From assembly GCA_025963725.1 (NCBI GenBank), contig JAOQAE010000002.1, forward strand, positions 1,356,411 through 1,420,410: a DNA stretch of 64,000 nt, read 5' to 3'. A program made the translations under genes and the position numbers. This DNA is from Bacteroidota bacterium (GTDB lineage Bacteria; Bacteroidota; Bacteroidia; 2-12-FULL-35-15). Position 1 is the first letter of the stretch, and each line of letters starts with the position of its first letter. Positions 39,542 through 62,170 of the stretch are shown here, piece by piece. The notes beneath the pieces were generated by a model. The model saw only the letters and a program-made list of their open reading frames with translations. It did no database searches and was not told where the DNA came from.

Positions 39542-39621
39542 CCAATTACGAATTTGTTCGAATTTACAAATCTGTGCACTATCTATTCCCCTCTTGAGAG
39601 GGGCTAGGGGTGTGTTTTTTT
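39542..39621 (-). repeat. Composite intergenic repeat (promoter-proximal motif plus GC-rich hairpin motif)
   Basis: Minus-strand reading gives AAAAAAACACACCCCTAGCCCCTCT (39597-39621) with hairpin CCCCTC-tcaa-GAGGGG (39588-39603). CACAGATTTGTAAATTCGAACAAATTCGTAATTGG (39542-39576) follows. It is located 60-140 nt upstream of the obg start and downstream of the adk stop. Confidence 0.5.
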
Positions 39622-39626
39622 CTGCT

Positions 39627-47959: not shown

Positions 47960-48005
47960 TTCAGTGGTTCACCACAGATTACACGGATAGCACAGATAAA
48001 GCAAC

Positions 48006-50624
48006 ATGAGCATAGGAAAAGTACATAGCATAAAAAAGATGATCGCGCAGCTGTTGCTGTTAGCTGCTCCTACGGCCATCCTGTTCTTTTATCTCTTATG
48101 GGATGTTAACCGCTTTTACGACATCCTCGAGAACAACTGGATCAGACAGGGAATTTATTTTACATCAGGGATCGTCGCCGCGATCATATTCTATGCGTTC
48201 CGCTTCCGATTCTTCACAACGGCTGCCATCGTTTTCCTGTTTTGCTATTCCTGCTATAAGCTATTGGGCAGCGTTTCGTTCGGGGAGTTCGATGCGTTTT
48301 ATTTTTCCATCCAGTTCCTCATTTTCACTTTCCTCTTCTCCGTAGGATGGCTTGCCGGCTTCGGCTTCAGCAGGTCGCGGTACTTTACGGTTGCATGGAG
48401 CGTGCTGCTGCTGGTGGCGCAGATCGTGGTGGTGAGCAAAACAACCGACATCAAGGTGAATGTGCTCATCAATGCTTTTGTGCCCATTCTTGCTTACGCT
48501 TTTTACATCATCTATACAGCAGAGCTGATCCGTAACATGAACGATGATGAGCCGAAATTCAGCTGGTTCATCCTGAAGCGCCTTTCCGGATTTGCCGTGG
48601 TGGCAATGCTGCTCTTTCTCCTCGTCTTCACTTTCTTTAAGAACGATTTCATGGCTGTAGAGCGTGAATGGGGCGGTTCCCAGCCGCAATCTGAGAAAGG
48701 AAAGGACAAGAGCGAGAACATGAATAAGAAGGACGGCAAAGGCAATGTGAGCAACAAGGACCAGACAAAGCTTACCGGCTCCTTGAGCAAGGACAAGCAG
48801 CTCGTGTTTGTTGCCAAGCTCGATAACTATTTCGATGATAACATAACGCCAAATCCTCTTTACTTCACCGCTTTCTATTACGGAAAGTTTGATACGCTTA
48901 CGCAGACCTTTGAACAGGATAGCCTCATGCCTTACAACGACCTGTTCAGTCCGGACCCATCGAAGATCCCTCTGTATTTTTCGAAATCCGACTCTTCCGT
49001 CCTTAAGAACAGCTTCGCTACAAAGAACCGTAAAGTGGTGACTGCCGACATTTACAAAGTGGTGCTTTCGCCGGACGTGTACCTTGCGCCTTCAACGGCT
49101 TTCTTCTGCCAGCCGATGTCGGTGCCGAAAGAATTCAAGGACCAGTACAAAAGCTCCTACCGCGCCAAAATGTGGGTAAGCGACCTGAACAGCGCCTACT
49201 TCATCTACAACCCGGCTGGTAACAAACAGCTCGCCGCTTTCCAGGAGCTCCGCTTCAACAAATTAAGAGAGATCAAAAAGGTAACTGGCCCCGATAAAAA
49301 ATTCATGGATTATTACACCTTCATGCCGAAGGATGAAGAATACAAAAAGATCGGCGAGCTGGCAAAAGAGGTTACAGCGAATGCTTCAACGCAGATCGAC
49401 AAGATGATCGCGATCCGCGATTATTTTTTAAGCAAAGATGAATTCGGCCAGCCGCTTTTCAAATACTCCGATAATCCCGGCATCCCCGGGCTGCCAAGCG
49501 CCAACAAGCTTACGTATTTCCTTCTGGAGAACAGGAAAGGCTACTGCGCGTATTTCGCGGGGGCAACATTATTCATGCTGCGTTCGCTCGGCATTCCTTC
49601 ACGCGTTGCGGCAGGTTATCTCACAGTCGACCGCAGCAGCAAAAACCCCGGCTGGTACTGGTACTATGCCGACCAGGCACATGCATGGGTGCAGGTGTAT
49701 TTCCCTGAATACGGCTGGATCGATTTTGATACTACAGTGCCTGATGTAAATACACAGCAATCGCCGCAGCCGGATGGCACGCCCCCGATGAACATCCCGC
49801 AGACGTACATGGTCGCTGATGGGGAGATAAAATCGGTGGATGTAAAAGCAAAGAAGATCAGCATGACGATCACCAAGCTGCTCTACCATGATAAGGATTA
49901 TGAAACAAAGATCGCCAAAGAGCTGAGCATCGATGTATCGATCGCAACCATATCGGCTGATACAGGCGCCGTGCAGCTTTCTGCGCTCACACCGGGATTG
50001 CACATTACAGCCGTTTCCTATTCCGAAGCACTGAAAAATATTCTTGCTGAACAAGATGACAGCCTGGCTTCCATCCTGGAAAAACTCCCGGTACCAACTC
50101 CGGTGGACGAAGTGAAGCTGCTTTTAAAAGATGAACTGAAGGAGCAGCAAAAGAAAAAAGAGGACCAGGCAAAAGCGCCTGTCGACTGGGCAAAAACAAT
50201 CCTCTATTTGCTAACCGCCCTCGCCGGCCTGCTTGTATTGTTGTTCCTGAGCCCGTGGTTCATCTGGATCTTCCTCAATGCAAAAGCGAAAGGCAAAGGC
50301 AATTCCAAAGCCTACAACAGCTACAGGGCATCGCTTTATTACCTGAACCAGCTTGGCTTTGAGCGGCAGAACATGGGCCCGCAGGAATATGCATACAGCA
50401 TCGACAACCGTTTCGGAAGCTCATTCAATACGTTCAACACTGCGTACCAGAAAGCGAAATACAGCTCTGTGCCGCTTACTGCGGCGGAAAAAGAAGTGCT
50501 GAACAATTCCTACAACAGCTTCATTAAAAAAGTAAGATCGCAGGTGCCGCTGAAAACACGCATCAGCAGGTTCCTTAATATTTACAACACAATTCATTTT
50601 TTCACGCAACCTAAAATAAAGTAA
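48006..50624 (+). CDS. Transglutaminase-like domain membrane protein
   Basis: Multiple N-terminal TM helices. TGase core Cys-His-Asp: GYCAYFAGATLFMLRSLGIPSRVAAGY ... HAWVQVYFPEYGWIDFDTT. One further TM helix after the core. Confidence 0.75.
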   Translation: MSIGKVHSIKKMIAQLLLLAAPTAILFFYLLWDVNRFYDILENNWIRQGIYFTSGIVAAIIFYAFRFRFFTTAAIVFLFCYSCYKLLGSVSFGEFDAFYFSIQFLIFTFLFSVGWLAGFGFSRSRYFTVAWSVLLLVAQIVVVSKTTDIKVNVLINAFVPILAYAFYIIYTAELIRNMNDDEPKFSWFILKRLSGFAVVAMLLFLLVFTFFKNDFMAVEREWGGSQPQSEKGKDKSENMNKKDGKGNVSNKDQTKLTGSLSKDKQLVFVAKLDNYFDDNITPNPLYFTAFYYGKFDTLTQTFEQDSLMPYNDLFSPDPSKIPLYFSKSDSSVLKNSFATKNRKVVTADIYKVVLSPDVYLAPSTAFFCQPMSVPKEFKDQYKSSYRAKMWVSDLNSAYFIYNPAGNKQLAAFQELRFNKLREIKKVTGPDKKFMDYYTFMPKDEEYKKIGELAKEVTANASTQIDKMIAIRDYFLSKDEFGQPLFKYSDNPGIPGLPSANKLTYFLLENRKGYCAYFAGATLFMLRSLGIPSRVAAGYLTVDRSSKNPGWYWYYADQAHAWVQVYFPEYGWIDFDTTVPDVNTQQSPQPDGTPPMNIPQTYMVADGEIKSVDVKAKKISMTITKLLYHDKDYETKIAKELSIDVSIATISADTGAVQLSALTPGLHITAVSYSEALKNILAEQDDSLASILEKLPVPTPVDEVKLLLKDELKEQQKKKEDQAKAPVDWAKTILYLLTALAGLLVLLFLSPWFIWIFLNAKAKGKGNSKAYNSYRASLYYLNQLGFERQNMGPQEYAYSIDNRFGSSFNTFNTAYQKAKYSSVPLTAAEKEVLNNSYNSFIKKVRSQVPLKTRISRFLNIYNTIHFFTQPKIK

Positions 50625-50625
50625 A

Positions 50626-51645
50626 ATGGAAGAGAACATTCAAATAGAGCAAGCCCTCGCCAATATCGGGAAGCTGGTTGACAACATCGAAACGGTGATC
50701 CGCGGCAAGCGCCAGCAGATTCAGTTCGTGCTCACCGCCCTTCTTGCAAAAGGGCATATCCTCATGGAAGATAATCCCGGCACAGGAAAAACGGTGATGG
50801 CAAAAACGCTGGCGAAAAGCATCTCGGGTGCGGAAGGCTCTTCGGGCGCCAATTTCAAGCGCATCCAGTTCACTCCCGACCTTCTCCCGATGGACCTGAT
50901 CGGCTCGCACATTTTCGACGATGTGAAAAAAGAGTTCGTGTTCAAGAAAGGGCCGTTATTCTGCAATGTGCTGCTGGCGGATGAGATCAACCGCGCCTCG
51001 CCGAAAGTGCAGTCGGCGCTGCTCGAGTGCATGGCAGAGCACCAGATCACCATGGGTGAAACCACCTACCCGCTCGAAAAATTATTCTTCACCATCGCCA
51101 CGCAAAACCCCGTGGAGATGGAAGGAACTTACCCGCTGCCGGCAGCGCAGCTCGACCGATTCTTCATCAAGATCTACTTCGGCTATGTTGACGAAGCCAC
51201 AGAGCTCAATATCTACAAGGATTACCTCGGCATCCAGAACAACCAGGACAACCTTCAGCAGGTGCTGAGTATGAAGGAGATCTTATTCCTGCAGGAAGAA
51301 ACTGAAAAGGTATTTATCCACGAAGAGCTGATCAACGCCGTGAAAAATATTGTGCGTGATACAAGAAGCCACCCCGATATTGTACTCGGCGCTTCCATCC
51401 GCAGCGGGATCACCTTTTTAAAATGCCTCAAAGCATTTGCTCTGGTGAACGGAAGAACCTTTGTAACAGAGGACGACATCCGCGGGATCACCTTTGCCGT
51501 GCTGGATCACAGGCTGATCTACCGCAACAGGGACGCCCGCCAGAAAGCGCTGCCGCTGATCATCGGCAGGGAGCTCGACCGTTTAAGCAAGTTGAACATC
51601 ACCACTAACAGAACAGCCTTTGCAGCCCCTGTACAAAATATCTAA
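50626..51645 (+). CDS. MoxR family AAA+ ATPase
   Basis: GHILMEDNPGTGKT (Walker A), LLADEINRASPKVQSALLE (Walker B / sensor) and the typical 320-340 aa length. Confidence 0.9.
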   Translation: MEENIQIEQALANIGKLVDNIETVIRGKRQQIQFVLTALLAKGHILMEDNPGTGKTVMAKTLAKSISGAEGSSGANFKRIQFTPDLLPMDLIGSHIFDDVKKEFVFKKGPLFCNVLLADEINRASPKVQSALLECMAEHQITMGETTYPLEKLFFTIATQNPVEMEGTYPLPAAQLDRFFIKIYFGYVDEATELNIYKDYLGIQNNQDNLQQVLSMKEILFLQEETEKVFIHEELINAVKNIVRDTRSHPDIVLGASIRSGITFLKCLKAFALVNGRTFVTEDDIRGITFAVLDHRLIYRNRDARQKALPLIIGRELDRLSKLNITTNRTAFAAPVQNI

Positions 51646-53677
51646 AACCCGGTTTCTCTTGCCCGCGCTGCTGTGCATGAGCCTGTTCCTCCACAAAAGT
51701 GCGGGAGCGCAGGGCAATGCATCGGCGCGCTATGAGATCGATGCAAAGCGCATCGGCGTATCTCCTACCGATAAGGACGCGCTGCCGCGGAGCCGCGAGT
51801 TCCTCCGCCTCGACAGCACCTATTATGTTGGCTGGATGTACGAAGGGCTTTATAAATTTGAACGCAGCGCCGATTATTTAGGATATAAGTATGCAGCAGT
51901 GCCTTTGCAGAAAGCATTCGACCTGCTCGACAAAGATTACGGCAACCGGCTGAGGAATATCTACTCCTCCTTCATGTATTACGAGCAGAACAGGAACCGC
52001 ATGAGCGACCTGTTCGAGATCGCCTATGCGCTGCAGAACTGCTACAACAGCATCGAGATGCCTGATTCCACGATGGCGCTCCTCGACAGGATAGAAAGCT
52101 ACCGTTTTCAAAAAGACTATTTCGGCGTTTACAACGAGCGCGCATGGATCTACCACCGTAACCGCTTTTTCACTTCCGAAAAATTCAGCTTCCTGAAAAA
52201 TTCCGTGGAAGAGAATGAAGACATGGCCTTCCGCTGCTGCTACCACCAGCTCGACCTGATCCAGCAGAACAGGAGCATCAACGATTACTGGTACGGGCCG
52301 CAGCAAAGCGAAGATGATATTTTAAGCGTGGAGCATAACCTCGCGCTGCTGCATTGCTACAATAAAAATTACGACAGCGCCGAATATCATTACCAGCACC
52401 TCATCGCCGGCAACCGCGTGGTATGGGGAAATTATGCGAACATGCAGCATGAGATGGGGAACATCGACAGCGCGATCACCTACTACTCCATGCCGCAAGG
52501 TGTAAGAGAACACGCGCTGAGCGAGCCCGATTATTATCTGCCGGAGATCTTTGTGTACGGCGGGCGCACAAAAGAGGCGATCACGATGGTGCGTGAAAAG
52601 ATCGAATCGAGCGGCTCCACTCCCGGTTTCGGATGGTACAACATTGCGCTGGCACGCAGCTACCTGTACGACGGACAGCTCGACAGCGCGGGCTTCTTCC
52701 TCGATAAAGCGCAAAACTTCAAAGAGCTTCACCTGCATACTACGCTAACACAATCACAGTATGAATTCACCATCAACCTGCTGAGGGTGCAGCTGCTCGA
52801 TAAAAAAATGGATGAAGTGAAGTTCCTCAACAAAGGATGGTGGTATTCGCCGGGCAGCCTGTACGACCTGCTTTCGCTGAAGGTTCAGAAGATGATGATG
52901 GAGTATGTAGTTGTGAACGAGCTTGCCGCGAATCCCGAGCGGCAGCGGATCATCTACGACCTGTTCTGCGGCGAATCAACCGTAAGCTACGATGAGATCA
53001 TGTACCTGCTGAAGGACTTTAATTCCCCCTACTTCCGCAAGCGCTGCGATTACAGCAAGGGCAACGACAAGCGGATGCGGATCCGGAAATACTTCAAGCT
53101 GTTCTCCGCAAAATTAAAGCTGGAAGACGGTGATGACGAAGATGCAAACATGGAAGCGGATTCACTGCTACAGGAAGTATACGCACAGGAAGGCATCCAG
53201 CTCGATACGGCCAATGAAAAGCTTTTCCTCGCAAGGGCCTATGAAATCCTCTCCAATACAAGCGATGATGAGGACAAGCAGGCGGAGCACGACCGTTACC
53301 AGAACAGCTTCCTTGAAGAATACCCACAGCTGGTTCCCTTTTCGAACCTGCGGATGAAAATGAAATTAACAGTCGCAGGAAATGATGATGCCATCACCGC
53401 ACAGGTAATAGAAGATCTTAAAGACTGCAACATTGAATGGCTGGAAGAAGGCGACAACGTTGCAGAAGCCAGCATCAGCTTTGTAAAGAAAGGAAAGAAC
53501 TACCAGGTGCTTTTCAACGTGGTGAGCGCCAGCGGAAAAGCGATCGTTTCCGGCGGCGAGATGATCTTTAAGGATGCGGAGAAAACCGGGAAGGAGCTGG
53601 CATTGCGGCTGTTTGCAAAGGGCGGAGGATTGGAATTTGAAGCGGTGAAGGAAGAAGCGGCGGAGCAGTTACCATAA
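51620..53677 (+). CDS. Secreted hypothetical protein (operon partner of MoxR/DUF58/TGase)
   Basis: Likely TTG start overlapping the MoxR 3' end. Hydrophobic signal-like N-terminus LLPALLCMSLFLHKSAGAQ. TPR-like helical content. No assigned family. Confidence 0.5.
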   Translation: MQPLYKISKTRFLLPALLCMSLFLHKSAGAQGNASARYEIDAKRIGVSPTDKDALPRSREFLRLDSTYYVGWMYEGLYKFERSADYLGYKYAAVPLQKAFDLLDKDYGNRLRNIYSSFMYYEQNRNRMSDLFEIAYALQNCYNSIEMPDSTMALLDRIESYRFQKDYFGVYNERAWIYHRNRFFTSEKFSFLKNSVEENEDMAFRCCYHQLDLIQQNRSINDYWYGPQQSEDDILSVEHNLALLHCYNKNYDSAEYHYQHLIAGNRVVWGNYANMQHEMGNIDSAITYYSMPQGVREHALSEPDYYLPEIFVYGGRTKEAITMVREKIESSGSTPGFGWYNIALARSYLYDGQLDSAGFFLDKAQNFKELHLHTTLTQSQYEFTINLLRVQLLDKKMDEVKFLNKGWWYSPGSLYDLLSLKVQKMMMEYVVVNELAANPERQRIIYDLFCGESTVSYDEIMYLLKDFNSPYFRKRCDYSKGNDKRMRIRKYFKLFSAKLKLEDGDDEDANMEADSLLQEVYAQEGIQLDTANEKLFLARAYEILSNTSDDEDKQAEHDRYQNSFLEEYPQLVPFSNLRMKMKLTVAGNDDAITAQVIEDLKDCNIEWLEEGDNVAEASISFVKKGKNYQVLFNVVSASGKAIVSGGEMIFKDAEKTGKELALRLFAKGGGLEFEAVKEEAAEQLP

Positions 53678-53843
53678 TACAGATAATAGATATTTACGAA
53701 TAATCTGTGTGAATAGCCAGCTTAGGATAAGCTATTGACTATTTATTAAATAATTAATAGATTTGTTAACTACCATACAACAGGCTCATTGTTAATATAG
53801 TGAATTAGAAACCACTAGAGAAATTAATTACAAACAACGAAAT

Positions 53844-55301
53844 ATGACTATAAAAAATCTTGAAGATGTATTTGTTACGGAAGGTGTTCCCCTTTATACC
53901 TTCGTAAAACCACCAAACTATAATGATATACTTTTAGACATTCGTAAAATTGGTAAGCCGGTTATTATTGAAGGGCAATCTGGGACTGGAAAAACAACCA
54001 CAGTGAAAAAAGTTCTTGAACAACTTGCTGAGAGGATTCAAATCAACTATTTGTCAGCAAGAAAAGCGATTGACGTAGAACAAATAGTGAAAATTGCTTC
54101 CACATCAATGTCCGGTTTTTTTGTCATCGACGATTTTCATAGGTTATCAAGCGAATTGCAGGAAAACCTCGCCAACATTGCTAAAGTTGCCGCGGAAGAA
54201 GGAAATGAAACACAACTTCCTAAGCTTATTTTTATTGGAATTAATCAAATTGGGTCGGAACTGATTCAATTAGTTCCTGACATTGCTAAACGATTTGGTA
54301 TACATAGAATTGATGCTGGAAGAAGCGATGATATTAAAAAGCTTATTGACAGCGGCTGCGCCGAATTAAATATTTCAATTACCAATCTAGAAGAAATTTA
54401 TTCTGAGTCCAAAGGTGATTATTGGCTAACTCAAATACTATGTCAGTCAATTTGTGGTTTGAATGACGTCACTGAAACCCAACAAAAAAAACGGCAAATA
54501 CATTATGATATTGACAAAACGCGCGCAAAAGTTGTTGGTAAGCTAGAAGCTTCTTATCACATTCCAGTGAAGGACTTTTGCCGGGGAAAGCGATTTCGAA
54601 AATCAAATGATCCGTATTTTAAGCTTCTTCGAGTTATCGGACAACAAGATTCGTCCATAGTTGACCTCAACAAACTTGCCAATCAGCATGAGGATGTCAA
54701 AGGTTCGATTAATAACATTAAGGAGCGACGTCTTGACATTTTGTTGGAGACTAAAGAATCATTAGTTAGATACTTTTATTATAACAGTGATACAAAAAAT
54801 TTCGCCATCGAAGATCCCGCACTATTTTATTACATAAAGCACTTAAATTGGGAGAAATTAAGAGATGATTGTGGCTTCAATGATGGAGAACGAAATTACG
54901 AATTTGAGATTGCTATCTCCTTCGCTGGGGAAAACCGTGAACTTGCAAGAAAATTCACTGAAAAACTAGAGATTTTTGATGTAAGCGTGTTTTTTGATGA
55001 ATTATACGAATCTAATCTATTAGGAAAGGCTTTAACGAAGCAATTTACTAGAATATTTAATGAAGGAAGCAAGTTTGTATTATGCCTGTTAGACCATCAT
55101 CATCATGAAAAAATATGGCCAACATTCGAGAGAGAAACTTTCCGCGTACGCGTTCAAGAAGAAGCTATCATACCTACTTATCTTGACAATACTAAGTTTC
55201 TTGGAATTCCAGAAGATTTGTATGGTTTTGATATGAAAAATGGATATTCTGAAGATGATATAGATAACGCGGTTATTAAATTGGTAGAAAGAATTAGTTG
55301 A
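53844..55301 (+). CDS. P-loop NTPase with C-terminal TIR domain (defense-like); AT-rich
   Basis: Walker A PVIIEGQSGTGKTTTV and Walker B FFVIDDFH in the first 110 aa or so. C-terminal EFEIAISFAGENRELARKFTEKLEIFDVSVFFDE...SKFVLCLLDHHHHEKIWPTFE matches TIR secondary-structure motifs (FISY/FAGED..., αC SxWCxxEL-like). GC is about 36%, against about 50% in neighbours. Confidence 0.65.
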   Translation: MTIKNLEDVFVTEGVPLYTFVKPPNYNDILLDIRKIGKPVIIEGQSGTGKTTTVKKVLEQLAERIQINYLSARKAIDVEQIVKIASTSMSGFFVIDDFHRLSSELQENLANIAKVAAEEGNETQLPKLIFIGINQIGSELIQLVPDIAKRFGIHRIDAGRSDDIKKLIDSGCAELNISITNLEEIYSESKGDYWLTQILCQSICGLNDVTETQQKKRQIHYDIDKTRAKVVGKLEASYHIPVKDFCRGKRFRKSNDPYFKLLRVIGQQDSSIVDLNKLANQHEDVKGSINNIKERRLDILLETKESLVRYFYYNSDTKNFAIEDPALFYYIKHLNWEKLRDDCGFNDGERNYEFEIAISFAGENRELARKFTEKLEIFDVSVFFDELYESNLLGKALTKQFTRIFNEGSKFVLCLLDHHHHEKIWPTFERETFRVRVQEEAIIPTYLDNTKFLGIPEDLYGFDMKNGYSEDDIDNAVIKLVERIS

Positions 55302-55503
55302 AAGTTTTCAGCGGTGTGACACCAGCTAGTCCTTTTTCAATCATTTATTTCTTCCACTTCCCCAGAGATGTGATTGATGTGCAGAACACCAAGCAAGGAA
55401 CTATTATTCGGTTCCAAAACCTCTCCAATCGTAGCTGTATTTCTCTCTTTTCCCCCACCGGATAAATTCCGTATTTTTAGATACTCATTCCAACACCGCG
55501 TTT

Positions 55504-56706
55504 ATGCTCAAACCATTCGAATTTCAGTTCCGGTTAAGGGATCATTTCAAAAAGCAGGAAAAAACCTGGAAATGGTTCTCGGAAGTAAAAGTTAAGAACG
55601 AACAAAGCGAGGAGTTCAAAGCCGAGCTTTTACAAAACACCTATCGCCTCGACCCTATCTCCGAAGCCGGCATTTATACATTGCTGGAGGAAGCCAAAAC
55701 AAAGCTGGGCATCATCATCCCGGTCACCATCTATCAGTCGCAATCTTCACAGGCAAGCAACGCGGGGATCATCTTCATCGGGAACGAAGCGCACCTTGTG
55801 CTTTCAGGCCCTGTCATAAAATTACTCGAAGAAAAGGAATTGCTGGCGCTGATCGCGCACGAGCTCTCGCATGTGCTGCTGTATACAATTGATAATGGCG
55901 ATTTTGAGGTGACCAGCAGGATCATCACAGCGATCGGCAACGATCACCGCAGCGAAGAAGCATTCATGGAAACGTCAAGGCTGTTCAGTCTTTTCACTGA
56001 ATTATACTGCGACATCGGGGCTTACCAGGTTTGCGGAAGCATGGATACGGTGATCTCGACGCTTGTGAAAATTGAAACAGGCCTTGATAAGATCTCCGCG
56101 GAAAATTACCTGAAACAGGCGGATGAGATCCTGGAAAAAATTGAAAAAGGCTCGCTTGGCGACTCGCATCCCGAATCATTTATCCGCGCAAAATGCATTG
56201 CCCTCTACGCTGAAAAAGGCGCGGAATCAGTAAAAGAAGTAAGCGCCCTTATTCTTGGGAAACAAGGTATTTTCAGCCTGAATATTTTTTCAAGGGATGA
56301 GATCTATGAAACAACACGCGAGCTGATCCACCTTATCATGAAGCCTAAATGGATGCAGAGCGAGCACAACAAAGCGCATTACAGGCAGTATTTCAGGGAC
56401 TTCAAAACCGACAGCAATGCCATGCTCACACCTGAGCTGAAAGCCAAGCTGGTCAGCGGCAATAATTCGCTGAAAGATTATTACGCGTATGTTATGCTTG
56501 ATTTTGCGCTGAGCGATACAGAGATCAGTGAACCCGCTTCCGGCCTTGTGCTCGACCTTGCAGAGCAGATGGAGCTACAGGAGCCGCTTGCAAAGGTCTT
56601 CAAAAAGGAGCTAAACCTGAGCGATAAGAAATTCAACGAGTACTCAAGAAATGCAGCAACAGCCTTAAATAATATCCTGGAATCGGAGCAGGAAAAATCA
56701 TATTGA
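55504..56706 (+). CDS. Soluble M48-like zinc metallopeptidase (HExxH...E...HPxxxxR)
   Basis: LLALIAHELSHVLLY (HExxH), a downstream Glu in ELYCD, and LGDSHPESFIRAKC. No TM segments. Its stop (56704-56706) is 1 nt before the ATG of the giant helicase gene, so the two are translationally coupled. Confidence 0.55.
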   Translation: MLKPFEFQFRLRDHFKKQEKTWKWFSEVKVKNEQSEEFKAELLQNTYRLDPISEAGIYTLLEEAKTKLGIIIPVTIYQSQSSQASNAGIIFIGNEAHLVLSGPVIKLLEEKELLALIAHELSHVLLYTIDNGDFEVTSRIITAIGNDHRSEEAFMETSRLFSLFTELYCDIGAYQVCGSMDTVISTLVKIETGLDKISAENYLKQADEILEKIEKGSLGDSHPESFIRAKCIALYAEKGAESVKEVSALILGKQGIFSLNIFSRDEIYETTRELIHLIMKPKWMQSEHNKAHYRQYFRDFKTDSNAMLTPELKAKLVSGNNSLKDYYAYVMLDFALSDTEISEPASGLVLDLAEQMELQEPLAKVFKKELNLSDKKFNEYSRNAATALNNILESEQEKSY

Positions 56707-56707
56707 T

Positions 56708-59700
56708 ATGCTTACAATAAAAGAAACGGAATTTTACAGCTTCCTCAGCGAAGGGATCGGCAAGGGCGGGTTTACCAATGATGATGTGGTTGCTGTTATA
56801 ATGCCATTGCTGGAAGAAGTGCATTCATTTCATCTTTCGGGAAAGGTGGCCCCGCTGGATAAGCTCAGCTCGATACTTGTAACAAACGAAAAGCTCGATA
56901 TTGATGAGTCGCTTGCGGGAAGCCCCTGCAATAACGTTGACAAGGTAACAGCCATCCTGCCAAAGAAAAATGAGGTGTTCGAGATCAGCGGCCACCTGAA
57001 GCAATCGACAGAGATCGGCGAATACAATTCCACCGAAGTAAAGAACCGCGAGATACAATCTGATGCGAATGCGGACATCCTGATGCCGGTGTACCTGCCC
57101 AATTATAAATGCTACGAGGTGTCGCTCGGCCATCACGATGCTGCTACCGACATTTACATCCTGGGGATGATCCTCGCGAGCCTAGCGCTGGGGCTTGACT
57201 TCACGCAGGAAGATGACCTTGCAGGCTTCGCGGAGAACAGGGGAAGCATGATCTTCCTGAATCACAAGATCCATCCTTCGATCGCGAACATCATTTTCGG
57301 GATGACCGAGCTCGACCGCCGCAAACGCTGGAAAGACCTTGGCGAGATCATCGATAATTTAAAGAACTACCGCGATTACAACCCGGAAACCGAGCACGAC
57401 CTTGCCACTATCGCCAATGCAAAGAACAAGGACAAAAGCAACAGGCAGCACTACATCCAGGGCAAGCTGCGCAACAGGCTGTTCGACATCAGCCGCCGCA
57501 ACAGGCTCTTGTATTTCAAGCCCAATCTTAAATTTTTAAATCTTTCCGTGTCTTCCGTTCCTGCGGTCCTTAATTACAAAAACATCGATCCTGAATCGTT
57601 GTTCTTCTGGAACAGGGATGTTTCCGAAAAGGTGATAAAAGGAAAAGACATTTCCCTTTCGAAATACATCCGCTTTGAAGACAATCCTTACATCGCGCCT
57701 TCCCTCGACAAGATCAGGCTGGAAGCGAACAGGGATGTGAATGAATATGGCTTCAGCCAGCTTAAGCTTGTGATCAGCTTCCTCAACTGGTACAATACAA
57801 AGGAGCAAACAACCGAAAAGATCTGCTCACCGCTCATACTTGTACCGGTAAACCTCGTTAAGAAAAAAGGCGTGAAAGACCAGTACATCCTGGAAATTGT
57901 GGACAATGAAGCGGAAATAAACCCGGTGCTTTCATTCATGCTGAAAGACCTGTACGACATCCGCCTGCCGGAAAGCATACAGCTTTCGGAGAGCAGCCTC
58001 GATGAGCTTTTCCGGAATTTAAAGACACAGATAGAAAAGGCGCGCTCGGGGATCGTGCTCGAAATGATCAACAAACCAAAGATCAAGCTGATCCATGCGC
58101 AGGCCAGGCAAACGCTGTCGCAATACAAAAGAAGGGTGAACAGGAACAGGAAAGTACAAACCTTTCACAACCTTGATTATTCGTACAATGCAGATAATTT
58201 CCAGCCTTTAGGCCTGCAGCTTTTCCGCAATTATGTGAAGCCGGAGCATTCCTCGCTCGAGTTCCTTATCAACAGCGACATAAAAGCGAATCCCTCCTAC
58301 TTCAGCGACAGCAGCATGTCGGAAACAACCCGCGAACTGTACCAGCTCGATGGGGGAAATACAAATCCTTTCAAATGGGAGTTCGATACCTGCAACATGG
58401 TGCTGGGGAATTTCAATTATAAAAAGATGTCGCTGGTGCGCGATTACAATTCCATCATCGACGAGAACATTCAAAGCAGCGTGTTCGAATCGCTGTTCAG
58501 CAGCCTTCCGAAAAAGGCCCGGCCGGAACAGGAAACGGAAAGCAGGATCGAAGAGCAGTTCAATGTGATCCAGTCGGACCCGACACAAAACAAGTCAGTA
58601 ATATATTCCCGCAAAGGGGAAAGCTATATCATCCAGGGCCCTCCGGGCACAGGGAAATCGCAGACCATTTCCAACCTTATTGCAGATTATGTGGCAAGAG
58701 GAAAAAAAGTGCTGTTCGTTTGTGAGAAAAGGGCCGCTATCGATGTGGTGTATTACAGGCTGAAGCAGCAGCAGCTCGATCAGCTGTGCTGTCTCATACA
58801 CGATTCCCAAACCGACAAGAAAGAGTTCATCCAGAACCTGAAAGCTACCTTCGGAACATTTACAACGAAGCCGCTTTCCGCAAAGGAAGCAGAAAAGGAA
58901 CGGAACGCTATCGTTGCGCAGATCAATTCGGAGCTCAGCGTCATCAAAGAATTTCACTCCTCCATGCAGCATTACCTTGATCATGCGCAGCTGAAAATAA
59001 GGGAGCTGATGGAAGTGTTGATCCAGAGTAAGCAGCATATTCCGGAAGGCAAAGAAATACCGGGAAGCATTGGCTATAAAGACTGGCTTGCCTACGGCGG
59101 GCTGATTCAGAAGATCTCCCGGACAAGCAACGAGCTGGAGGGAAGCCCTTTTTATTCGAAACATCCATTCAGGTACTTGGGTGAAAAAGCGATCTATAAC
59201 GAGAAGCCGGGAACTGAGCTGAAGGCAGAGCTTATAAGATCGATGGAGCTGGTCGGCGAGATCGCTGAGAGGCTTGAAATGGCCGACGTTCCGGAATCAT
59301 GCATAGGCAGCATTACAGCGCTCCGGGAATTCCTGGAACAGGTGGAAATGCTTCTTCCGTTCAAAGAGCAGGACCGGGCCGGGCTGCTTACCGTCAACAG
59401 CGAACTTCATAAAAAGCTTTCCGATGCAGTGACCAACCTCGAAACGATGCATGCGAAAGTGGAAGAAGCCGCAGGAAAGAATAAGTTCTGGCTTCAGAAG
59501 TTTTCGGAGACCGATGCGGAAAATGCGCTTGAGATCGTGCAAAAACATGAAAGATCATTTTTCTCATTCTTCAATTCCAGCTTCAGGAAGATCAAAAAAG
59601 CGATCCATCAATCCTATAATTTTTCCATGCACCAGGTAAAGCCGCCGCTCACACAGGTGGTTTCCAACCTCAAGGCGGAATACGATGTGCGCAATAGCTT

Positions 59701-62170
59701 CAATAAAGAAAAGCAAAGCACGGAGCAGTTCTTCAGGCTGGGCGATCTGTTCAGCCTTGCTAAAAAGCTGAAAGAGATAGAACCGAGATCAGGCACGCCG
59801 GCCTTTGCCTATGTGAAGAATGAAGAAACCGGCCTTGGCAAGCTAAAAGACCTTGCGGAGATCAGGATCCTCTTCGGCCAGCTGGATGCTTCCCTGCAGG
59901 AAAACCTGCGTGATACTTCCCGCCAAACACTGGAAAGCCTTTCTGAGATCATGCAGGCGATCATCGCGCGCACAAAGGACCTTTCCGCCTTTGCACCGCT
60001 GATGCGCGAACTGAATAGCGCAGATGCCGCGCTGAAGCAGATCGTGCTGGAGGAAAACCTGCTTCCCTCGCAGGTTAAAGGGCTTCTTGCAAAAGCGAGC
60101 ATTGATAAGTTCTACAGCACAAACCGCGATGCCCGGAAGATCGAAGGAGAAAAGATCCTGCACCAGGTAGCAAAGATCAAAAAGCTCTACCAAAAATTCT
60201 TAGCTGTCAACTCGGGATACATCATTGCGAAACAGCAGGAGCGCTTTAATAAGCTGATCCAGAAATCGGAAATGTCGATGGCAGGGAAAAGCAACCAGGA
60301 AAAAGAAGAAAAAAGATCACTGGTGGAAGGAAGAAAGATCCTTGACAATGAATTCGGGAAAAGCATGCGGTATAAATCGATCCGCGAAATGGCAACCTCC
60401 GAATCGGGACAGATCATCCGCGAGCTAAAACCTGTGTGGCTGATGAGCCCACTCAGCGTTTCGGATACGCTTCCGCTGCGCACCGATTATTTCGATGTGG
60501 TGATCTTTGATGAGGCCAGCCAGATCACGCTTGAAGAAGGTGTGCCGCCGGTTTACCGCGCCTCGCAGATCATCATCGTGGGTGACGAGATGCAGATGCC
60601 GCCGAGCAATTATTTCAGCAGCTCCTCCTCCGACCCCGACGATCTTTGGGAAGAGGACGATGAAGATTCGAAGCTGCTTTCACTCGATGCCGACAGCTTC
60701 CTCACGCAGGGCGCACGAAAATTTCCTTCTGTAATGCTTGGCTGGCACTACCGCAGCAGGCATGAATCGCTGATCGGCTTTTCCAATGCATCTTTCTATA
60801 AAAATGAATTGCTCACGATCCCGGATAATCTAGACAATCAGAATGAGCTGAACGAAATAACAGCAGAAAATAAAAACGATGCTGTAACCAATGCGGCTGC
60901 ATTGCTCGAACGCCCCATCAGCTATCATTTTCTGAAGCATGGCGTTTATGAGAGCCGCAGCAACATTGCCGAAGCGGAGTATATCGCGGAGATGATCCGC
61001 ACATTGCTCCTGCAGAAAAAAGGGCTAAGCATCGGCGTGGTTGCCTTCTCCATGGAACAGCAGGGAGAGATCGAAAGCGCGGTGACGAACCTTGCCAGGG
61101 AGGACAAGGAATTTGAAAAGGCGATAGAGGAAGAATACAAGCGCATGGAAGACAACCAGTTTGTGGGGATCTTCTTTAAAAATTTAGAGAATGTGCAGGG
61201 CGACGAGCGCGATATCATTATCATGAGCACCTGCTACGGGTACGACCCTAAAGGCAAGATGATCATGAACTTCGGGCCGATCAACAGGCGCGGCGGCGAA
61301 AAAAGGCTGAACGTTATTTTTTCACGCGCGAAAAAAAGGATGTGCGTAGTAAGCTCCATTAAGTATACCGACATTAAAAATGAATACAATGAAGGCGCGA
61401 ACTACTTCCGGAAATATTTGCAGTATGCGGAACATGCAAGCAAAGGCAATATGGAAATGGCGAACCTGGTGCTTCAATCCGTGATTGCGGAGGAAAAGAA
61501 AATAAAGCAGGAGCTATACAATACGGTGGTGATCGGCCAGCTGGTGAAAATGCTGGAAGATAACGGCTACAGCACCACAAAGCTGATCGGGCAATCGTAT
61601 TTCAAATGCCATATCGGGGTCAAAAGATCAGCCTCCGATACTTCCTATACTGCGGGCATTCTCGTGGACGACATGTTTCATTATTCGAACAGCGACCTTC
61701 TTGAGCAATACCTGTTCAAGCCGGAGATCCTTCGCTCCAGCGGATGGAAAGTGATGCAGGTGTACTCAAAGGATTGGTACGATGACCCGGATAAATTAAC
61801 AAAGCGCATCCTTGGCTTTATTGAAAGCGATGCGCTTGCTGAACCAAGGGATGAAGCCCCGGAAGAGGAAACGGGATTTACTGAAGAACAACCAAATGAT
61901 GAAACATTTCCGGAGTCTCCCGCAGAAGAAGCAGGAGATGATAATTCCCTGAGCACCGGCGCTGTTCGCCTGCTCAACAGTGAGAACAACAGCAACAAGT
62001 TCTGGGAGATCCATGCAGAAGAAAATAATTTAGTGATCCGCTATGGCAAAGCCGGTACGAAAGGGCAAAGGATCATCAAATCATTCGATACAAAAGCAAT
62101 GGCGGAAAATGAAATGCAGAAGCTGATCAGGCAGAAGCTTGCCAAAGGATATAAAGCCAGCGAAGGCTGA
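56708..62170 (+). CDS. 1820-aa multidomain protein: kinase-like N-terminal remnant, DUF4011, Upf1/DNA2-like SF1 helicase, Vsr/DUF559-like endonuclease fold, and a C-terminal WGR domain
   Basis: N-terminus: LLEEVHSFHLSGKV...ILVTNEKLDIDESLAG and YEVSLGHHDAATDIYILGMILASLALGLDF resemble kinase subdomains VIb-IX without an N-lobe. DUF4011-like segment: DISRRNRLLYFKPNLKFLNLS. Helicase motif I: QGPPGTGKSQT. Motif II: VIFDEASQ. Further motifs: VGDEMQMPP, WHYRSRHESL and RLNVIFSRAKKR (motif VI). Endonuclease-like region: CHIGVKRSASD...AGILVDDMFHYS...GWKVMQVYSKDWYDDP (DUF559/Vsr-like). Terminal WGR: NKFWEIHAEENNLVIRYGKAGTKGQ...KLAKGYKA. Confidence 0.8.
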   Translation: MLTIKETEFYSFLSEGIGKGGFTNDDVVAVIMPLLEEVHSFHLSGKVAPLDKLSSILVTNEKLDIDESLAGSPCNNVDKVTAILPKKNEVFEISGHLKQSTEIGEYNSTEVKNREIQSDANADILMPVYLPNYKCYEVSLGHHDAATDIYILGMILASLALGLDFTQEDDLAGFAENRGSMIFLNHKIHPSIANIIFGMTELDRRKRWKDLGEIIDNLKNYRDYNPETEHDLATIANAKNKDKSNRQHYIQGKLRNRLFDISRRNRLLYFKPNLKFLNLSVSSVPAVLNYKNIDPESLFFWNRDVSEKVIKGKDISLSKYIRFEDNPYIAPSLDKIRLEANRDVNEYGFSQLKLVISFLNWYNTKEQTTEKICSPLILVPVNLVKKKGVKDQYILEIVDNEAEINPVLSFMLKDLYDIRLPESIQLSESSLDELFRNLKTQIEKARSGIVLEMINKPKIKLIHAQARQTLSQYKRRVNRNRKVQTFHNLDYSYNADNFQPLGLQLFRNYVKPEHSSLEFLINSDIKANPSYFSDSSMSETTRELYQLDGGNTNPFKWEFDTCNMVLGNFNYKKMSLVRDYNSIIDENIQSSVFESLFSSLPKKARPEQETESRIEEQFNVIQSDPTQNKSVIYSRKGESYIIQGPPGTGKSQTISNLIADYVARGKKVLFVCEKRAAIDVVYYRLKQQQLDQLCCLIHDSQTDKKEFIQNLKATFGTFTTKPLSAKEAEKERNAIVAQINSELSVIKEFHSSMQHYLDHAQLKIRELMEVLIQSKQHIPEGKEIPGSIGYKDWLAYGGLIQKISRTSNELEGSPFYSKHPFRYLGEKAIYNEKPGTELKAELIRSMELVGEIAERLEMADVPESCIGSITALREFLEQVEMLLPFKEQDRAGLLTVNSELHKKLSDAVTNLETMHAKVEEAAGKNKFWLQKFSETDAENALEIVQKHERSFFSFFNSSFRKIKKAIHQSYNFSMHQVKPPLTQVVSNLKAEYDVRNSFNKEKQSTEQFFRLGDLFSLAKKLKEIEPRSGTPAFAYVKNEETGLGKLKDLAEIRILFGQLDASLQENLRDTSRQTLESLSEIMQAIIARTKDLSAFAPLMRELNSADAALKQIVLEENLLPSQVKGLLAKASIDKFYSTNRDARKIEGEKILHQVAKIKKLYQKFLAVNSGYIIAKQQERFNKLIQKSEMSMAGKSNQEKEEKRSLVEGRKILDNEFGKSMRYKSIREMATSESGQIIRELKPVWLMSPLSVSDTLPLRTDYFDVVIFDEASQITLEEGVPPVYRASQIIIVGDEMQMPPSNYFSSSSSDPDDLWEEDDEDSKLLSLDADSFLTQGARKFPSVMLGWHYRSRHESLIGFSNASFYKNELLTIPDNLDNQNELNEITAENKNDAVTNAAALLERPISYHFLKHGVYESRSNIAEAEYIAEMIRTLLLQKKGLSIGVVAFSMEQQGEIESAVTNLAREDKEFEKAIEEEYKRMEDNQFVGIFFKNLENVQGDERDIIIMSTCYGYDPKGKMIMNFGPINRRGGEKRLNVIFSRAKKRMCVVSSIKYTDIKNEYNEGANYFRKYLQYAEHASKGNMEMANLVLQSVIAEEKKIKQELYNTVVIGQLVKMLEDNGYSTTKLIGQSYFKCHIGVKRSASDTSYTAGILVDDMFHYSNSDLLEQYLFKPEILRSSGWKVMQVYSKDWYDDPDKLTKRILGFIESDALAEPRDEAPEEETGFTEEQPNDETFPESPAEEAGDDNSLSTGAVRLLNSENNSNKFWEIHAEENNLVIRYGKAGTKGQRIIKSFDTKAMAENEMQKLIRQKLAKGYKASEG

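What the first reader, a model, noticed from the sequence alone, without database searches (positions are those of the whole stretch)
56708..62170. Unusual domain fusion: kinase-like remnant + DUF4011 + SF1 helicase + Vsr-like nuclease + WGR
The C-terminal 70 aa (KFWEIHAEENNLVIRYGKAGTKGQ...KLAKGYKA) match a WGR domain, which is a nucleic-acid-break sensing module best known from PARPs. It is placed after a DUF559/Vsr-like endonuclease fold. The first ~190 aa retain recognisable kinase C-lobe-like features, with catalytic-loop-like H-LSGKV-APLDKLSSILVT, a DFG-like DIDESLAG segment and an APE/subdomain IX-like DIYILGMILASLALGLDF segment. There is no glycine-rich N-lobe, which suggests a pseudokinase scaffold. 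Large DUF4011 helicases are common, but this combination could couple break or structure sensing (WGR) to helicase-nuclease action.
Basis: partly seen in the sequence, partly recalled or inferred. Interest (0 to 1): 0.65.

Follow-up and report, generated by a model that had tools for sequence, protein, structure and literature searches.

The report
Protease-partnered pseudokinase–helicase–WGR gene pair
The giant gene really does encode a dead kinase-like domain, a helicase motor, a degenerate nuclease-like module and a WGR domain. It is not a one-off: it belongs to an undescribed, protease-partnered branch of the known Hhe/ProA anti-phage helicase superfamily, found in hundreds of bacterial species.

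Summary
Pfam finds DUF4011, a split SF1B helicase, REase_MTES_1575 (Vsr fold) and WGR. Residues 1-225 are a kinase C-lobe-only pseudokinase, supported by a PDB profile search, a PHROG hit and a confident AF2 model whose fold matches are almost all kinases.

Three corrections apply.
1. The fusion is not unusual. At least 404 species genomes encode relatives. WGR is present in 116/120 close relatives but in only 25/77 wider cluster representatives.
2. In the window's clade the nuclease-like module has lost the metal-binding Asp (0/120), so helicase-nuclease action is doubtful.
3. A soluble M48-type zinc protease with an intact active site (55504-56706) lies directly upstream in 73/80 loci and usually abuts or overlaps the helicase gene. 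The validated relatives ProA and Hhe lack both the pseudokinase and the protease.

Best reading (about 0.5): a two-gene sensor/effector cassette of the Hhe/ProA type. WGR plus helicase sense nucleic acid, the pseudokinase docks or gates the protease, and proteolysis is the output. The function is untested, and the flanking genes show no clear defence-island signal. Rated a new variant of a known kind, with moderate interest.

The parts
55464..55503 (+). Start of the conserved cassette: a 40-nt upstream leader and possible promoter region of the protease gene.
   Evidence: Homology with the 90%-identical relative L001 resumes exactly at 55464, after a non-homologous 1.8-kb stretch. The sequence was read. 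Promoter function is inferred and was not tested; the sigma-70 scan does not cover Bacteroidota promoters.
55504..56706 (+). Partner gene: a 400-aa soluble M48-type zinc metalloprotease with an unassigned helical C-terminal half.
   Evidence: Pfam Peptidase_M48 29.7 bits (cut-off 20.3) and SprT-like 24.4 bits (just below its cut-off). H119, E120, H123, E166, H222, P223, E224 and R228 are invariant in 24 homologues. AF2 pLDDT is 89.6. Weak fold matches go to BepA, ZMPSTE24, BlaR1, selecase, SPRTN and HtpX. No TM segment. The gene lies directly upstream on the same strand in 73/80 loci and in 3 of 4 distant members.
55858..55872 (+). HExxH zinc-binding and catalytic motif of the protease (H119-E-L-S-H123).
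   Evidence: Invariant in alignment A4. It aligns with the HtpX HExxH motif.
56708..62170 (+). Whole 1820-aa multidomain helicase gene. Its ATG lies 1 nt after the protease stop.
56708..57382 (+). Kinase C-lobe-only pseudokinase domain (aa 1-225).
   Evidence: Searches support the kinase fold. Residue counts are: no HRD Asp, the catalytic-loop Asn is present in 9/120, and the DFG Asp position is E in 86 and D in 19. E137, H142, H143, D144, D148, G153 and R207 are invariant. The domain occurs only at the N-terminus of this helicase family among 1.84 billion representatives.
57476..57943 (+). DUF4011 (aa 257-412).
   Evidence: Pfam 58.2 bits.
57944..58567 (+). Conserved pre-helicase region (aa 413-620), including the near-invariant GNFNYKKMSLVRDYN.
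   Evidence: Conservation. The match to ProA/Hhe-type relatives starts here, at about residue 557.
58568..58969 (+). Helicase domain 1A, N-terminal half, with Walker A (GPPGTGKS 644-651).
   Evidence: AAA_11 residues 630-753 match profile positions 9-144. K650 is invariant. PDB hits to IGHMBP2 and Upf1 fall here.
58970..60307 (+). Poorly conserved insert of about 440 aa that splits the AAA_11 domain.
   Evidence: Low conservation. In relatives the second AAA_11 stretch resumes at about residue 1130-1200. No function is assigned.
60308..61492 (+). Helicase domain 1A C-terminal half (Walker B DEAS 1268-1271, motif III Q1296) and domain 2A (AAA_12 1338-1550).
   Evidence: D1268, E1269, Q1296, R1501 and R1533 are invariant. 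Matches to Sen1 and the IGHMBP2 family.
61541..61816 (+). Vsr-fold REase_MTES_1575-like module (aa 1612-1703), degenerate in this clade.
   Evidence: Pfam 42.6 bits, against 118 bits in ProA. Position 1635 is S77/H31/N10/A2 with 0 D, and position 1652 is hydrophobic. D1654, H1658, Y1659, E1666, Q1667, Y1668, K1688, D1689 and W1690 are invariant or nearly so. In the wider family, position 1635 is D in 59/77.
61817..61972 (+). Acidic low-complexity linker (aa 1704-1755; 17 D/E against 2 K/R).
   Evidence: It is gapped and variable in alignments.
61973..62161 (+). WGR domain (aa 1756-1818).
   Evidence: Pfam 60.2 bits. PDB 2ra8 (B. fragilis) E = 4e-6. W1766, G1780, K1791 and Y1815 are conserved. 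It occupies the place of DUF3320 in ProA.

Best explanation
Genes 55504-56706 and 56708-62170 form a two-gene cassette. It is an undescribed branch of the Hhe/ProA superfamily of large DUF4011/SF1B helicase-nuclease proteins, two of which NCBI names as anti-phage proteins.

Proposed working:
1. The two genes are co-expressed. Tight spacing is shown; co-expression is inferred.
2. The large protein is an ATP-driven Upf1-like SF1B translocase. Intact motifs are shown; the activity is inferred.
3. Its C-terminal WGR recruits or activates it at nucleic-acid discontinuities such as breaks, ends or nicks. This is inferred from the role of WGR in PARP1-3.
4. The Vsr-like module in this clade has lost its metal-binding Asp (shown). 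It probably acts as a DNA-reading or clamping module rather than a cutter (inferred).
5. The N-terminal kinase C-lobe is catalytically dead (shown). It probably serves as a protein docking site or allosteric switch for the partner. This is inferred from co-occurrence: the pseudokinase and the protease are both present in this branch and both absent from ProA.
6. The soluble M48 protease, whose active site is intact (shown), is the enzymatic output. It would cleave a phage or host protein once the helicase has sensed foreign or damaged nucleic acid (inferred).
For: - Conserved pairing. The protease gene is immediately upstream on the same strand in 73/80 genome loci, while every other window neighbour is conserved in 0-3/80. 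The spacing is -11 to +10 nt in about 38/62 loci. The same pair, with a 4-nt overlap, is found in Ralstonia and in 3 of 4 distant members.
- Superfamily membership. NCBIfam antiphage_ProA scores 658 bits and Hhe_antiphage 439 bits over residues ~557-1765. PADLOC gives PDC-S37 2e-203 and Hhe 1e-97.
- Intact motor residues, a dead kinase and a degenerate nuclease.
- Intact protease residues.
- The N-domain is exclusive to this family. It is absent from ProA-type proteins, which also lack the protease neighbour.
- Patchy, multi-phylum distribution: Bacteroidota, Verrucomicrobiota, Betaproteobacteria, Binatia and Obscuribacterales.
- In the window, a TIR-STAND gene has been inserted right next to the cassette.
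Against: - No experiment exists for this branch. The ProA and Hhe scores are far below the equivalog cut-offs of 1500 and 2000 bits.
- Flanking genes across 80 loci are mostly housekeeping. Only about 6-8 of 149 non-redundant flanking ORFs hit PADLOC models, so the usual defence-island signal is weak.
- No close relatives are found on viral contigs.
- A few loci sit beside repair genes: uvrA in Ralstonia and UvrD-like genes in L072 and L096.
- Six loci and one distant member lack the protease, so it is not strictly obligatory.
- The pseudokinase-protease contact is inferred only from co-occurrence.
- The nuclease module keeps an invariant alternative polar set, and the window protein has His at the lost Asp position, so residual nuclease activity cannot be excluded.
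Confidence: 0.5

Rival explanations
1. Genome-maintenance system for protein-blocked DNA. WGR finds a break or nick next to a covalently or tightly bound protein, such as a trapped topoisomerase. The SF1B motor pushes or unfolds the protein. The M48/SprT-like protease degrades it, analogous to SPRTN-type DNA-protein-crosslink repair.
For: - The partner has weak sequence similarity (24.4 bits, just below the cut-off) and weak fold similarity to SprT/SPRTN in addition to M48.
- Flanking genes are mainly housekeeping.
- The cassette is adjacent to a giant uvrA paralogue in Ralstonia and to UvrD-like helicases in L072 and L096.
- Other bacterial WGR proteins (MolR, DR2173) belong to DNA-damage regulons (PMC8533742).
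- A nuclease is dispensable in this model, which fits the lost Asp.
Against: - The cassette is rare and patchy: about 404 of 185,579 species, spread over unrelated phyla. That is unusual for a core repair function.
- The closest named relatives are anti-phage proteins.
- The repair-gene adjacency amounts to 3 of about 85 loci and could be chance.
- The SprT-like match covers only the generic HExxH region.
Confidence: 0.2
2. A self-contained Hhe/ProA-like helicase-nuclease. The Vsr-like module still cuts DNA through a non-canonical site (D1654, D1655, H1658, E1666, and His/Ser at 1635). The M48 protein is only a regulator, for example an activator that cleaves the big protein or an immunity or antitoxin-like factor, and not the effector.
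For: - The module keeps an invariant polar constellation under strong selection.
- The wider family mostly retains the first Asp (59/77), and Ralstonia has it.
- Hhe works as a single helicase-nuclease gene (bioRxiv 10.1101/2024.10.10.617714).
- Some family members lack the protease.
Against: - The Vsr D51-equivalent is absent in 120/120 members of the window's clade.
- The Pfam score of the module is barely above threshold: 42.6 bits, against 100-118 bits in ProA.
- Strict conservation of an intact protease active site and of the coupling argues that proteolysis is central.
Confidence: 0.2
3. An RNA-directed surveillance machine. The Upf1-like motor and WGR act on RNA or RNA-DNA hybrids rather than on DNA breaks.
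For: - The nearest solved helicases are Upf1, Sen1 and IGHMBP2, which act on RNA or on both nucleic acids.
- WGR is described generically as a nucleic-acid-binding module.
Against: - The Vsr-fold and DUF3320/wHTH context of the superfamily points to DNA (PMC3710099).
- No RNA-specific domain is present.
Confidence: 0.05

Closest known systems
ProA (NCBIfam NF058533, 'anti-phage protein ProA'): DUF3320-type helicases of about 1960-1985 aa, e.g. Klebsiella plasmid WP_064360768 and B. finegoldii WP_237924679
   Same: DUF4011, a split AAA_11/AAA_12 SF1B motor, then a Vsr-fold MTES_1575 module in the same order. About 33% identity over residues ~557-1765.
   Different: - ProA has a different N-terminus of about 370-410 aa with no pseudokinase.
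- It has a canonical RIDLG...(E/I)CDG nuclease motif.
- It carries DUF3320 instead of WGR at the C-terminus.
- It has no M48 neighbour.
- The window protein scores 658 bits against the 1500-bit cut-off.
Hhe (Gao et al. 2020 single-gene helicase + Vsr-nuclease defence; NCBIfam NF042953, PADLOC Hhe)
   Same: A large DUF4011 SF1 helicase with a C-terminal Vsr-like nuclease. The HMM matches the C-terminal helicase and nuclease.
   Different: Only residues ~1175-1727 match, at 439 bits against a 2000-bit cut-off. Hhe is a single-gene system with an active-type nuclease. Here there is a pseudokinase, a WGR, a protease partner and a degenerate nuclease.
PADLOC PDC-S37 (unvalidated phage defence candidate)
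   Same: The strongest PADLOC hit: 2e-203 and 677 bits in three stretches.
   Different: The best stretch covers residues 1064-1741 against model positions 756-1368 of 1550, and the score is about that of the ProA match. This is probably homology of the core only. PADLOC has no model for the protease partner (0 hits).
[quoted passage not shown]
   Same: A kinase C-lobe retained without an N-lobe or catalytic residues and used, in eukaryotes, as a protein-protein interaction module (PMC2064798 and PMC6615252). This is the functional logic proposed here.
   Different: KIND is described only in eukaryotes. No Pfam KIND hit appears at E<=1 in the window protein or in 29 family members. This is an analogy, not membership.
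WGR domain of PARP1-3 and bacterial WGR proteins (MolR, DR2173, B. fragilis 2ra8)
   Same: A Pfam WGR match well above threshold and a sequence match to the solved bacterial WGR protein 2ra8.
   Different: It is not attached to an ADP-ribosyltransferase. Here it is the C-terminal appendage of a helicase and is dispensable in two thirds of the wider family's clusters.
M48 zinc metalloproteases (HtpX, BepA, Ste24/ZMPSTE24) and the related sensor-protease BlaR1
   Same: HExxH, a downstream Glu and an HPE...R signature. Pfam M48 is above the cut-off, and the best fold matches are BepA, ZMPSTE24 and BlaR1.
   Different: It is soluble and cytoplasmic, with no TM segment or signal peptide. It has a C-terminal helical domain of about 170 aa with no structural match, and its gene is coupled to a helicase gene.

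Membership tests
ProA anti-phage protein (NCBIfam NF058533, equivalog) | Whole-protein score at or above the curated cut-off of 1500 bits, with end-to-end coverage of the 1903-position model. | tested here: not met
   657.6 bits, with only residues 557-1765 aligned to positions 577-1756. True ProA proteins score about 2200 bits end to end.
ProA anti-phage protein (NCBIfam NF058533, equivalog) | C-terminal DUF3320 (wHTH) after the Vsr-like nuclease. | tested here: not met
   WGR occupies this position. DUF3320 is present in ProA.
Hhe (NCBIfam NF042953 / PADLOC Hhe) | Score at or above 2000 bits; a single-gene helicase plus Vsr-nuclease. | tested here: not met
   438.6 bits, covering residues 1175-1727 only. 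A conserved second gene is present.
PADLOC PDC-S37 candidate | Full-length match to the 1550-position model. | tested here: inconclusive
   E = 2e-203, but in three stretches, the best covering residues 1064-1741 against model positions 756-1368. No cut-off is available, and the family is unvalidated.
Upf1-like SF1B helicases (AAA_11/AAA_12) | Walker A GxxGxGK[ST], Walker B DE, motif III Q and arginine fingers. | tested here: met
   GPPGTGKS 644-651, DEAS 1268-1271, Q1296, R1501 and R1533 are invariant in 120/120. Pfam AAA_11 and AAA_12 are above their cut-offs. PDB hits to IGHMBP2, Sen1 and Upf1.
Eukaryotic-like protein kinase superfamily | Bilobal fold with a Gly-rich loop and a VAIK Lys in the N-lobe. 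| tested here: not met
   Only about 41 residues precede the catalytic-loop equivalent. The ORF start is fixed by the upstream stop and by the homologues.
Eukaryotic-like protein kinase superfamily | C-lobe fold: alphaE, catalytic loop/DFG strands, APE, alphaF-alphaI. | tested here: met
   Foldseek top 50 in PDB are all kinases, and in BFVD nearly all of the top ~38 named matches are kinases. The profile alignment covers subdomains VIII-XI. E137, D148 and R207 are invariant.
Eukaryotic-like protein kinase superfamily | Catalytic HRD Asp, catalytic-loop Asn and DFG Asp. | tested here: not met
   The HRD Asp position is F/L/I in 120/120. The Asn is present in 9/120. The DFG Asp position is E in 86 and D in 19. 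Pfam Pkinase reaches only E = 0.01 at best, in 4/29 members.
KIND domain | Match to the KIND sequence family. | tested here: not met
   No KIND hit at E<=1 in Pfam scans of the protein or of 29 N-domains.
WGR domain (PF05406) | Pfam score at or above 22 bits, with the conserved aromatic-Gly-Arg/Lys and Trp positions. | tested here: met
   60.2 bits. W1766 in 116/120, [YF]1779-G1780, and K1791 and Y1815 conserved. Nucleic-acid binding was not tested.
Vsr-fold REase_MTES_1575 (PF18741) | Pfam score at or above 38.2 bits. | tested here: met
   42.6 bits, residues 1612-1703.
Vsr-fold REase_MTES_1575 (PF18741) | Metal-binding Asp on the first core strand (RIDLG in ProA; the equivalence to Vsr D51 is from my own knowledge) plus the downstream (E)xD..H. 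| tested here: not met
   Position 1635 is H in the window and S77/H31/N10/A2 in 120 relatives. Position 1652 is hydrophobic. D1654 and H1658 are retained. Position 1635 is D in 59/77 of the wider family.
Peptidase M48 (the partner protein) | HExxH, a third Glu ligand and the C-terminal HP...R motif; Pfam score at or above 20.3 bits. | tested here: met
   29.7 bits. H119, E120, H123, E166, H222, P223, E224 and R228 are invariant.
Peptidase M48 (the partner protein) | Membrane-embedded or periplasmic location, typical of HtpX, Ste24 and BepA (from my own knowledge). | tested here: not met
   The maximum 19-residue Kyte-Doolittle hydropathy is 1.4, with no N-terminal hydrophobic segment.

The most novel reading that the evidence does not exclude
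A bacterial counterpart of the eukaryotic KIND principle. A kinase C-lobe stripped of catalysis acts as the docking site or allosteric gate that couples a WGR-guided, break-sensing SF1B helicase to a dedicated soluble M48 protease. Proteolysis, not DNA cleavage, would then be the output of this branch of the Hhe/ProA immune helicases. This would be a new sensor-to-protease signalling architecture in prokaryotic immunity or DNA-protein-adduct repair.
Probability: 0.3. Interest if true: 0.75.

Novelty: new variant of a known kind. Interest (0 to 1): 0.5.

Why it matters
Hhe and ProA are accepted anti-phage genes, but I found no worked-out mechanism for either in the literature I could search. 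This branch shows that the same helicase chassis can swap its terminal modules: a pseudokinase replaces the ProA N-terminus and WGR replaces DUF3320. It can also lose the canonical nuclease site while gaining a dedicated protease. That gives three testable handles: what the helicase senses (WGR), how the signal is passed on (pseudokinase) and what the output is (protease).

It would also be, to my knowledge, the first C-lobe-only kinase-like domain described in bacteria, and a rare case of a prokaryotic WGR attached to a motor protein. If the repair reading is right instead, it would be a candidate bacterial DNA-protein-crosslink protease-helicase system.

Tried and rejected
- A profile of the nuclease module against PDB sequences gave only spurious de novo TIM-barrel repeats and no Vsr or DUF559 structure. 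Catalytic residues were therefore judged by alignment to ProA-type relatives instead.
- The fold search of the protease partner was weak (best E = 0.027), and its C-terminal half stayed unassigned.
- Defence-island enrichment: pooled scans of 149 flanking ORFs gave mostly housekeeping families. This neither supports nor excludes defence.
- The viral-contig scan found no close relatives, so a phage-borne origin was rejected.
- The window has no tRNA genes and no Rfam matches, and I did not look for integrase genes, so I could not place the cassette on a recognisable integrative element.
- Literature searches for DUF4011/WGR/PDC-S37/ProA combinations found no description of this architecture or of ProA itself. 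The 'ProA' name rests on NCBIfam alone.
- The sigma-70 and terminator scan is not informative for Bacteroidota.
- I considered and rejected a missed N-lobe encoded upstream. The upstream frame is the protease gene, and homologues start at the same Met.
Full report
OBSERVATION

The window carries an uninterrupted 1820-codon ORF at 56708-62170 on the + strand. An identical protein is deposited as a hypothetical protein of a Bacteroidetes MAG. Pfam places four things above the curated cut-offs:
- DUF4011 at residues 257-412.
- An SF1B helicase, with AAA_11 at 630-753 plus a second stretch and AAA_12 at 1338-1550.
- REase_MTES_1575 at 1612-1703, at 42.6 bits against a cut-off of 38.2.
- WGR at 1756-1818, at 60.2 bits against a cut-off of 22.

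So the DUF4011, helicase, Vsr-like and WGR parts of the finding are correct at the stated coordinates.

THE N-TERMINAL 'KINASE REMNANT'

Pfam gives no kinase hit for the window protein at E<=1. I aligned the first 256 residues of 29 diverse relatives (A1).

The profile search against all PDB sequences returned 38 hits, nearly all Ser/Thr kinases. The best were E = 0.0024 (S. aureus PrkC 4eqm and 9ymt). Residues 131-222 aligned on kinase subdomains VIII-XI.

AlphaFold2 on this alignment gave a confident model, with pLDDT 84.9 and pTM 0.80. Foldseek against the PDB returned protein kinases for all 50 top matches, including AMPK, STK16, PknB and PknG (probability 1.0, TM 0.40-0.49). Against BFVD, nearly all of the top ~38 matches that carry a name are kinases. 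PHROGs gives a serine-threonine kinase family at E = 8.7e-4. Pkinase is the commonest sub-threshold Pfam hit among family members, at 4/29.

In 120 relatives:
- The structural hallmarks of the C-lobe are invariant: E137 (APE Glu), D148 and G153 (DxWxxG of subdomain IX) and R207 (subdomain XI).
- The HRD Asp position is F/L/I in 120/120.
- The catalytic-loop Asn is present in 9/120.
- The DFG Asp position is Glu in 86 and Asp in 19.

Only about 41 residues precede the catalytic-loop equivalent. The ATG follows the upstream stop by one base, so no N-lobe exists. The domain is therefore a C-lobe-only pseudokinase.

A profile search of 1.84 billion cluster representatives found 415 proteins at E<=1e-3. 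In the best 150, the domain is always at residues ~1-255 of proteins of 1640-1940 aa, or of fragments. It appears private to this helicase family. An extra invariant H142-H143-D144 motif has no kinase counterpart and is unexplained.

HOW UNUSUAL IS THE FUSION?

It is not unusual.
- The 120 best clusters in the 5.8-billion-protein search are almost all about 1800 aa, 43-100% identical and aligned end to end. 116 of them carry WGR.
- A scan of one genome per species found at least 404 species with a relative. The best 80 loci are full length. They come from Bacteroidota (Flavobacterium, Chitinophagaceae, Pedobacter and others), Verrucomicrobiota, a Binatia MAG and an Obscuribacterales MAG.
- Ralstonia solanacearum megaplasmids carry a 48%-identical copy annotated 'WGR domain-containing protein'.

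Public annotations already call these proteins 'SF1 helicase/predicted DNA-binding WGR domain protein'.

Across the wider set of cluster representatives that carry the N-domain, only 25 of 77 full-length proteins have WGR. Most of the other 52 end within 2-39 residues of the Vsr-like module, and three carry other tails of 133-155 residues. WGR is therefore a lineage-specific C-terminal add-on. It sits where the ProA-type relatives carry DUF3320. DUF3320 was described as two wHTH domains after the 'novel Vsr-REase' of MTES_1575 (PMC3710099).

THE NUCLEASE MODULE

I aligned the C-terminus with two canonical DUF3320-type proteins (Klebsiella WP_064360768 and B. finegoldii WP_237924679) and with the Ralstonia orthologue. 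The canonical proteins read FRIDLG...VECDG..YH...ARDRD. The window protein reads FKCHIG...ILVDD..HY...LLEQY.

In 120 close relatives:
- The position of the first metal-binding Asp is S77/H31/N10/A2 and never D.
- The canonical Glu position is always hydrophobic.
- D1654 is invariant and H1658 nearly so.
- A different polar set is invariant or nearly so: Q1629, S1630, Y1659, E1666, Q1667, Y1668, K1688, D1689 and W1690.

In the wider family the first Asp is present in 59/77 representatives, and in Ralstonia. The loss is therefore specific to the window's clade. The Pfam score of the module is correspondingly marginal, at 42.6 bits against 100-118 bits in ProA.

The module is under selection but probably does not act as a canonical endonuclease.

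THE MISSED PARTNER

The 400-aa ORF at 55504-56706 ends one base before the helicase ATG. It has the following properties:
- Pfam Peptidase_M48 at 29.7 bits against a 20.3-bit cut-off, with a near-threshold SprT-like hit.
- tblastn of all window neighbours against the 80 loci found this gene immediately upstream, on the same strand, in 73/80 loci. Every other neighbour was found in 0-3/80.
- Of the seven exceptions, one locus is cut at the contig end and three are a shorter Chitinophaga variant.
- The spacing is -11 to +10 nt in about 38 of 62 cleanly called pairs.
- The pair recurs in Ralstonia with a 4-nt overlap and in three of four distant N-domain-bearing members, including two that lack WGR.
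- The protein family is annotated 'M48 family metalloprotease'. It keeps H119-E-x-x-H123, E166 and H222-P-E...R228 invariant.
- It has no membrane segment and folds confidently, with pLDDT 89.6.
- Only its N-terminal core weakly resembles BepA, ZMPSTE24, BlaR1, selecase, SPRTN and HtpX. The C-terminal helical half matches nothing.

ProA-type relatives have neither the pseudokinase nor a protease neighbour. Pseudokinase and protease therefore co-occur as features of this branch. That is the basis for proposing that they interact.

RELATION TO KNOWN SYSTEMS

- NCBIfam's best models are antiphage_ProA (657.6 bits against a cut-off of 1500; residues 557-1765) and Hhe_antiphage (438.6 bits against 2000).
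- The Klebsiella and B. finegoldii proteins are genuine ProA, at about 2200 bits.
- PADLOC gives PDC-S37 at 2e-203 and Hhe at 1e-97, and nothing for the protease. PDC entries are unvalidated candidates.
- Hhe is used in the literature as a validated single-gene helicase-nuclease defence.
- I found no paper describing ProA or the present architecture.

The window family is thus a distinct, unmodelled branch of a superfamily with anti-phage members.

CONTEXT

- Flanking genes differ between loci. When pooled (149 non-redundant ORFs), they are mostly housekeeping, with only a handful of PADLOC hits.
- No close relative lies on viral contigs.
- In the window, the 1.8 kb directly upstream of the cassette (53678-55463) carries an AAA/STAND-TIR gene and has low GC. 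It is absent from the 90%-identical relative L001. That is reminiscent of defence-gene clustering, but it is a single case.
- Three loci lie beside uvrA or UvrD-type genes.

MECHANISM

Shown:
- An intact SF1B motor, a WGR domain, a dead kinase C-lobe and a Vsr-like module without its canonical Asp.
- A tightly linked, active-site-intact soluble M48 protease.
- Co-occurrence of the protease and the pseudokinase.

Inferred:
- The motor patrols or loads on nucleic acid.
- WGR directs it to discontinuities, as it does in PARPs.
- The Vsr-like module reads or clamps DNA.
- The pseudokinase docks or gates the protease, as KIND domains dock partners in eukaryotes.
- Proteolysis is the output.

I put this defence-type sensor/protease model at about 0.5. 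A DNA-protein-adduct repair system gets about 0.2, and a still-active Hhe-like nuclease with the protease as a mere regulator gets about 0.2.

VERDICT

The object is a new variant of a known kind and not a singular fusion. Its most interesting features are the bacterial C-lobe-only pseudokinase and the dedicated protease partner.

Noticed in passing
window 53678-55463 (gene 53844-55301, + strand): A 485-aa AAA/STAND-like NTPase with a C-terminal TIR_2 domain (28.9 bits against a cut-off of 28; weak PADLOC PDC-S59 and PDC-S66 hits). It lies in a low-GC (0.39) stretch that is absent from the 90%-identical relative L001, which has 759 bp of unrelated sequence there. It looks like a recent insertion of a defence-type gene right next to the cassette.
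   Followed up: partly
window 39627-40907 (- strand): An adenylate kinase (GPPGAGKGT...) fused to a Lys/Ala/Pro-rich, histone-H1-like repetitive tail of about 230 aa. The long ORF on the opposite strand (39610-40119) is probably an artefact of the repeat.
   Followed up: no
window 42182-43513 (+ strand): A 443-aa protein with a Fic-type motif (HPFDDGNGRTAR) in a region of lowered GC (0.43). It was identified from the motif only and was not scanned against profiles.
   Followed up: no
window 10001-12000: The strongest GC dip in the window (0.356, against about 0.48 elsewhere). Its content was not examined.
   Followed up: no
L081 10096-15933 (Ralstonia solanacearum CP047139): A 1945-aa gene annotated uvrA lies immediately downstream of the M48 + WGR-helicase pair, on the same strand. 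Molybdopterin genes (moeB and the sulfur carrier) lie upstream on the other strand.
   Followed up: no
L083 9078-10208 (B. finegoldii plasmid): The genuine ProA gene is followed, convergently and with a 1-nt gap, by a 'reverse transcriptase family protein' gene. This may be a ProA-associated partner or a separate defence gene.
   Followed up: no
L044, L045, L047 (Chitinophaga): A shorter variant of the helicase (1735-1738 aa) keeps the N-domain and still aligns to the query's C-terminus (residues ~1817-1820). It lacks the upstream M48 gene, and a TonB-type receptor-sized gene on the opposite strand sits there instead.
   Followed up: partly
window residues H142-H143-D144 of the helicase (nt 57131-57139): An invariant His-His-Asp triplet lies between the APE-like Glu and the subdomain IX Asp of the pseudokinase. 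It has no counterpart in protein kinases and could be a metal site or a partner-binding site.
   Followed up: no
L007 14621-15166 and about 9 other Flavobacterium loci: A Nudix/NrtR-like regulator (NrtR_WHD, NUDIX) is the conserved downstream neighbour of the cassette in about 10 loci. This is probably genus-level synteny, but a preprint links Hhe defence to NAD+/adenine metabolism.
   Followed up: no
window 46641-53677: A block encoding a 459-aa protein, an 872-aa multi-pass membrane protein that I only provisionally labelled transglutaminase-like from reading the sequence (not profile-scanned), a MoxR-type AAA ATPase (its L001 counterpart probably accounts for the single AAA_3 hit) and a 685-aa protein. 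It is syntenic with L001 at 87% DNA identity and is unrelated to the cassette.
   Followed up: no
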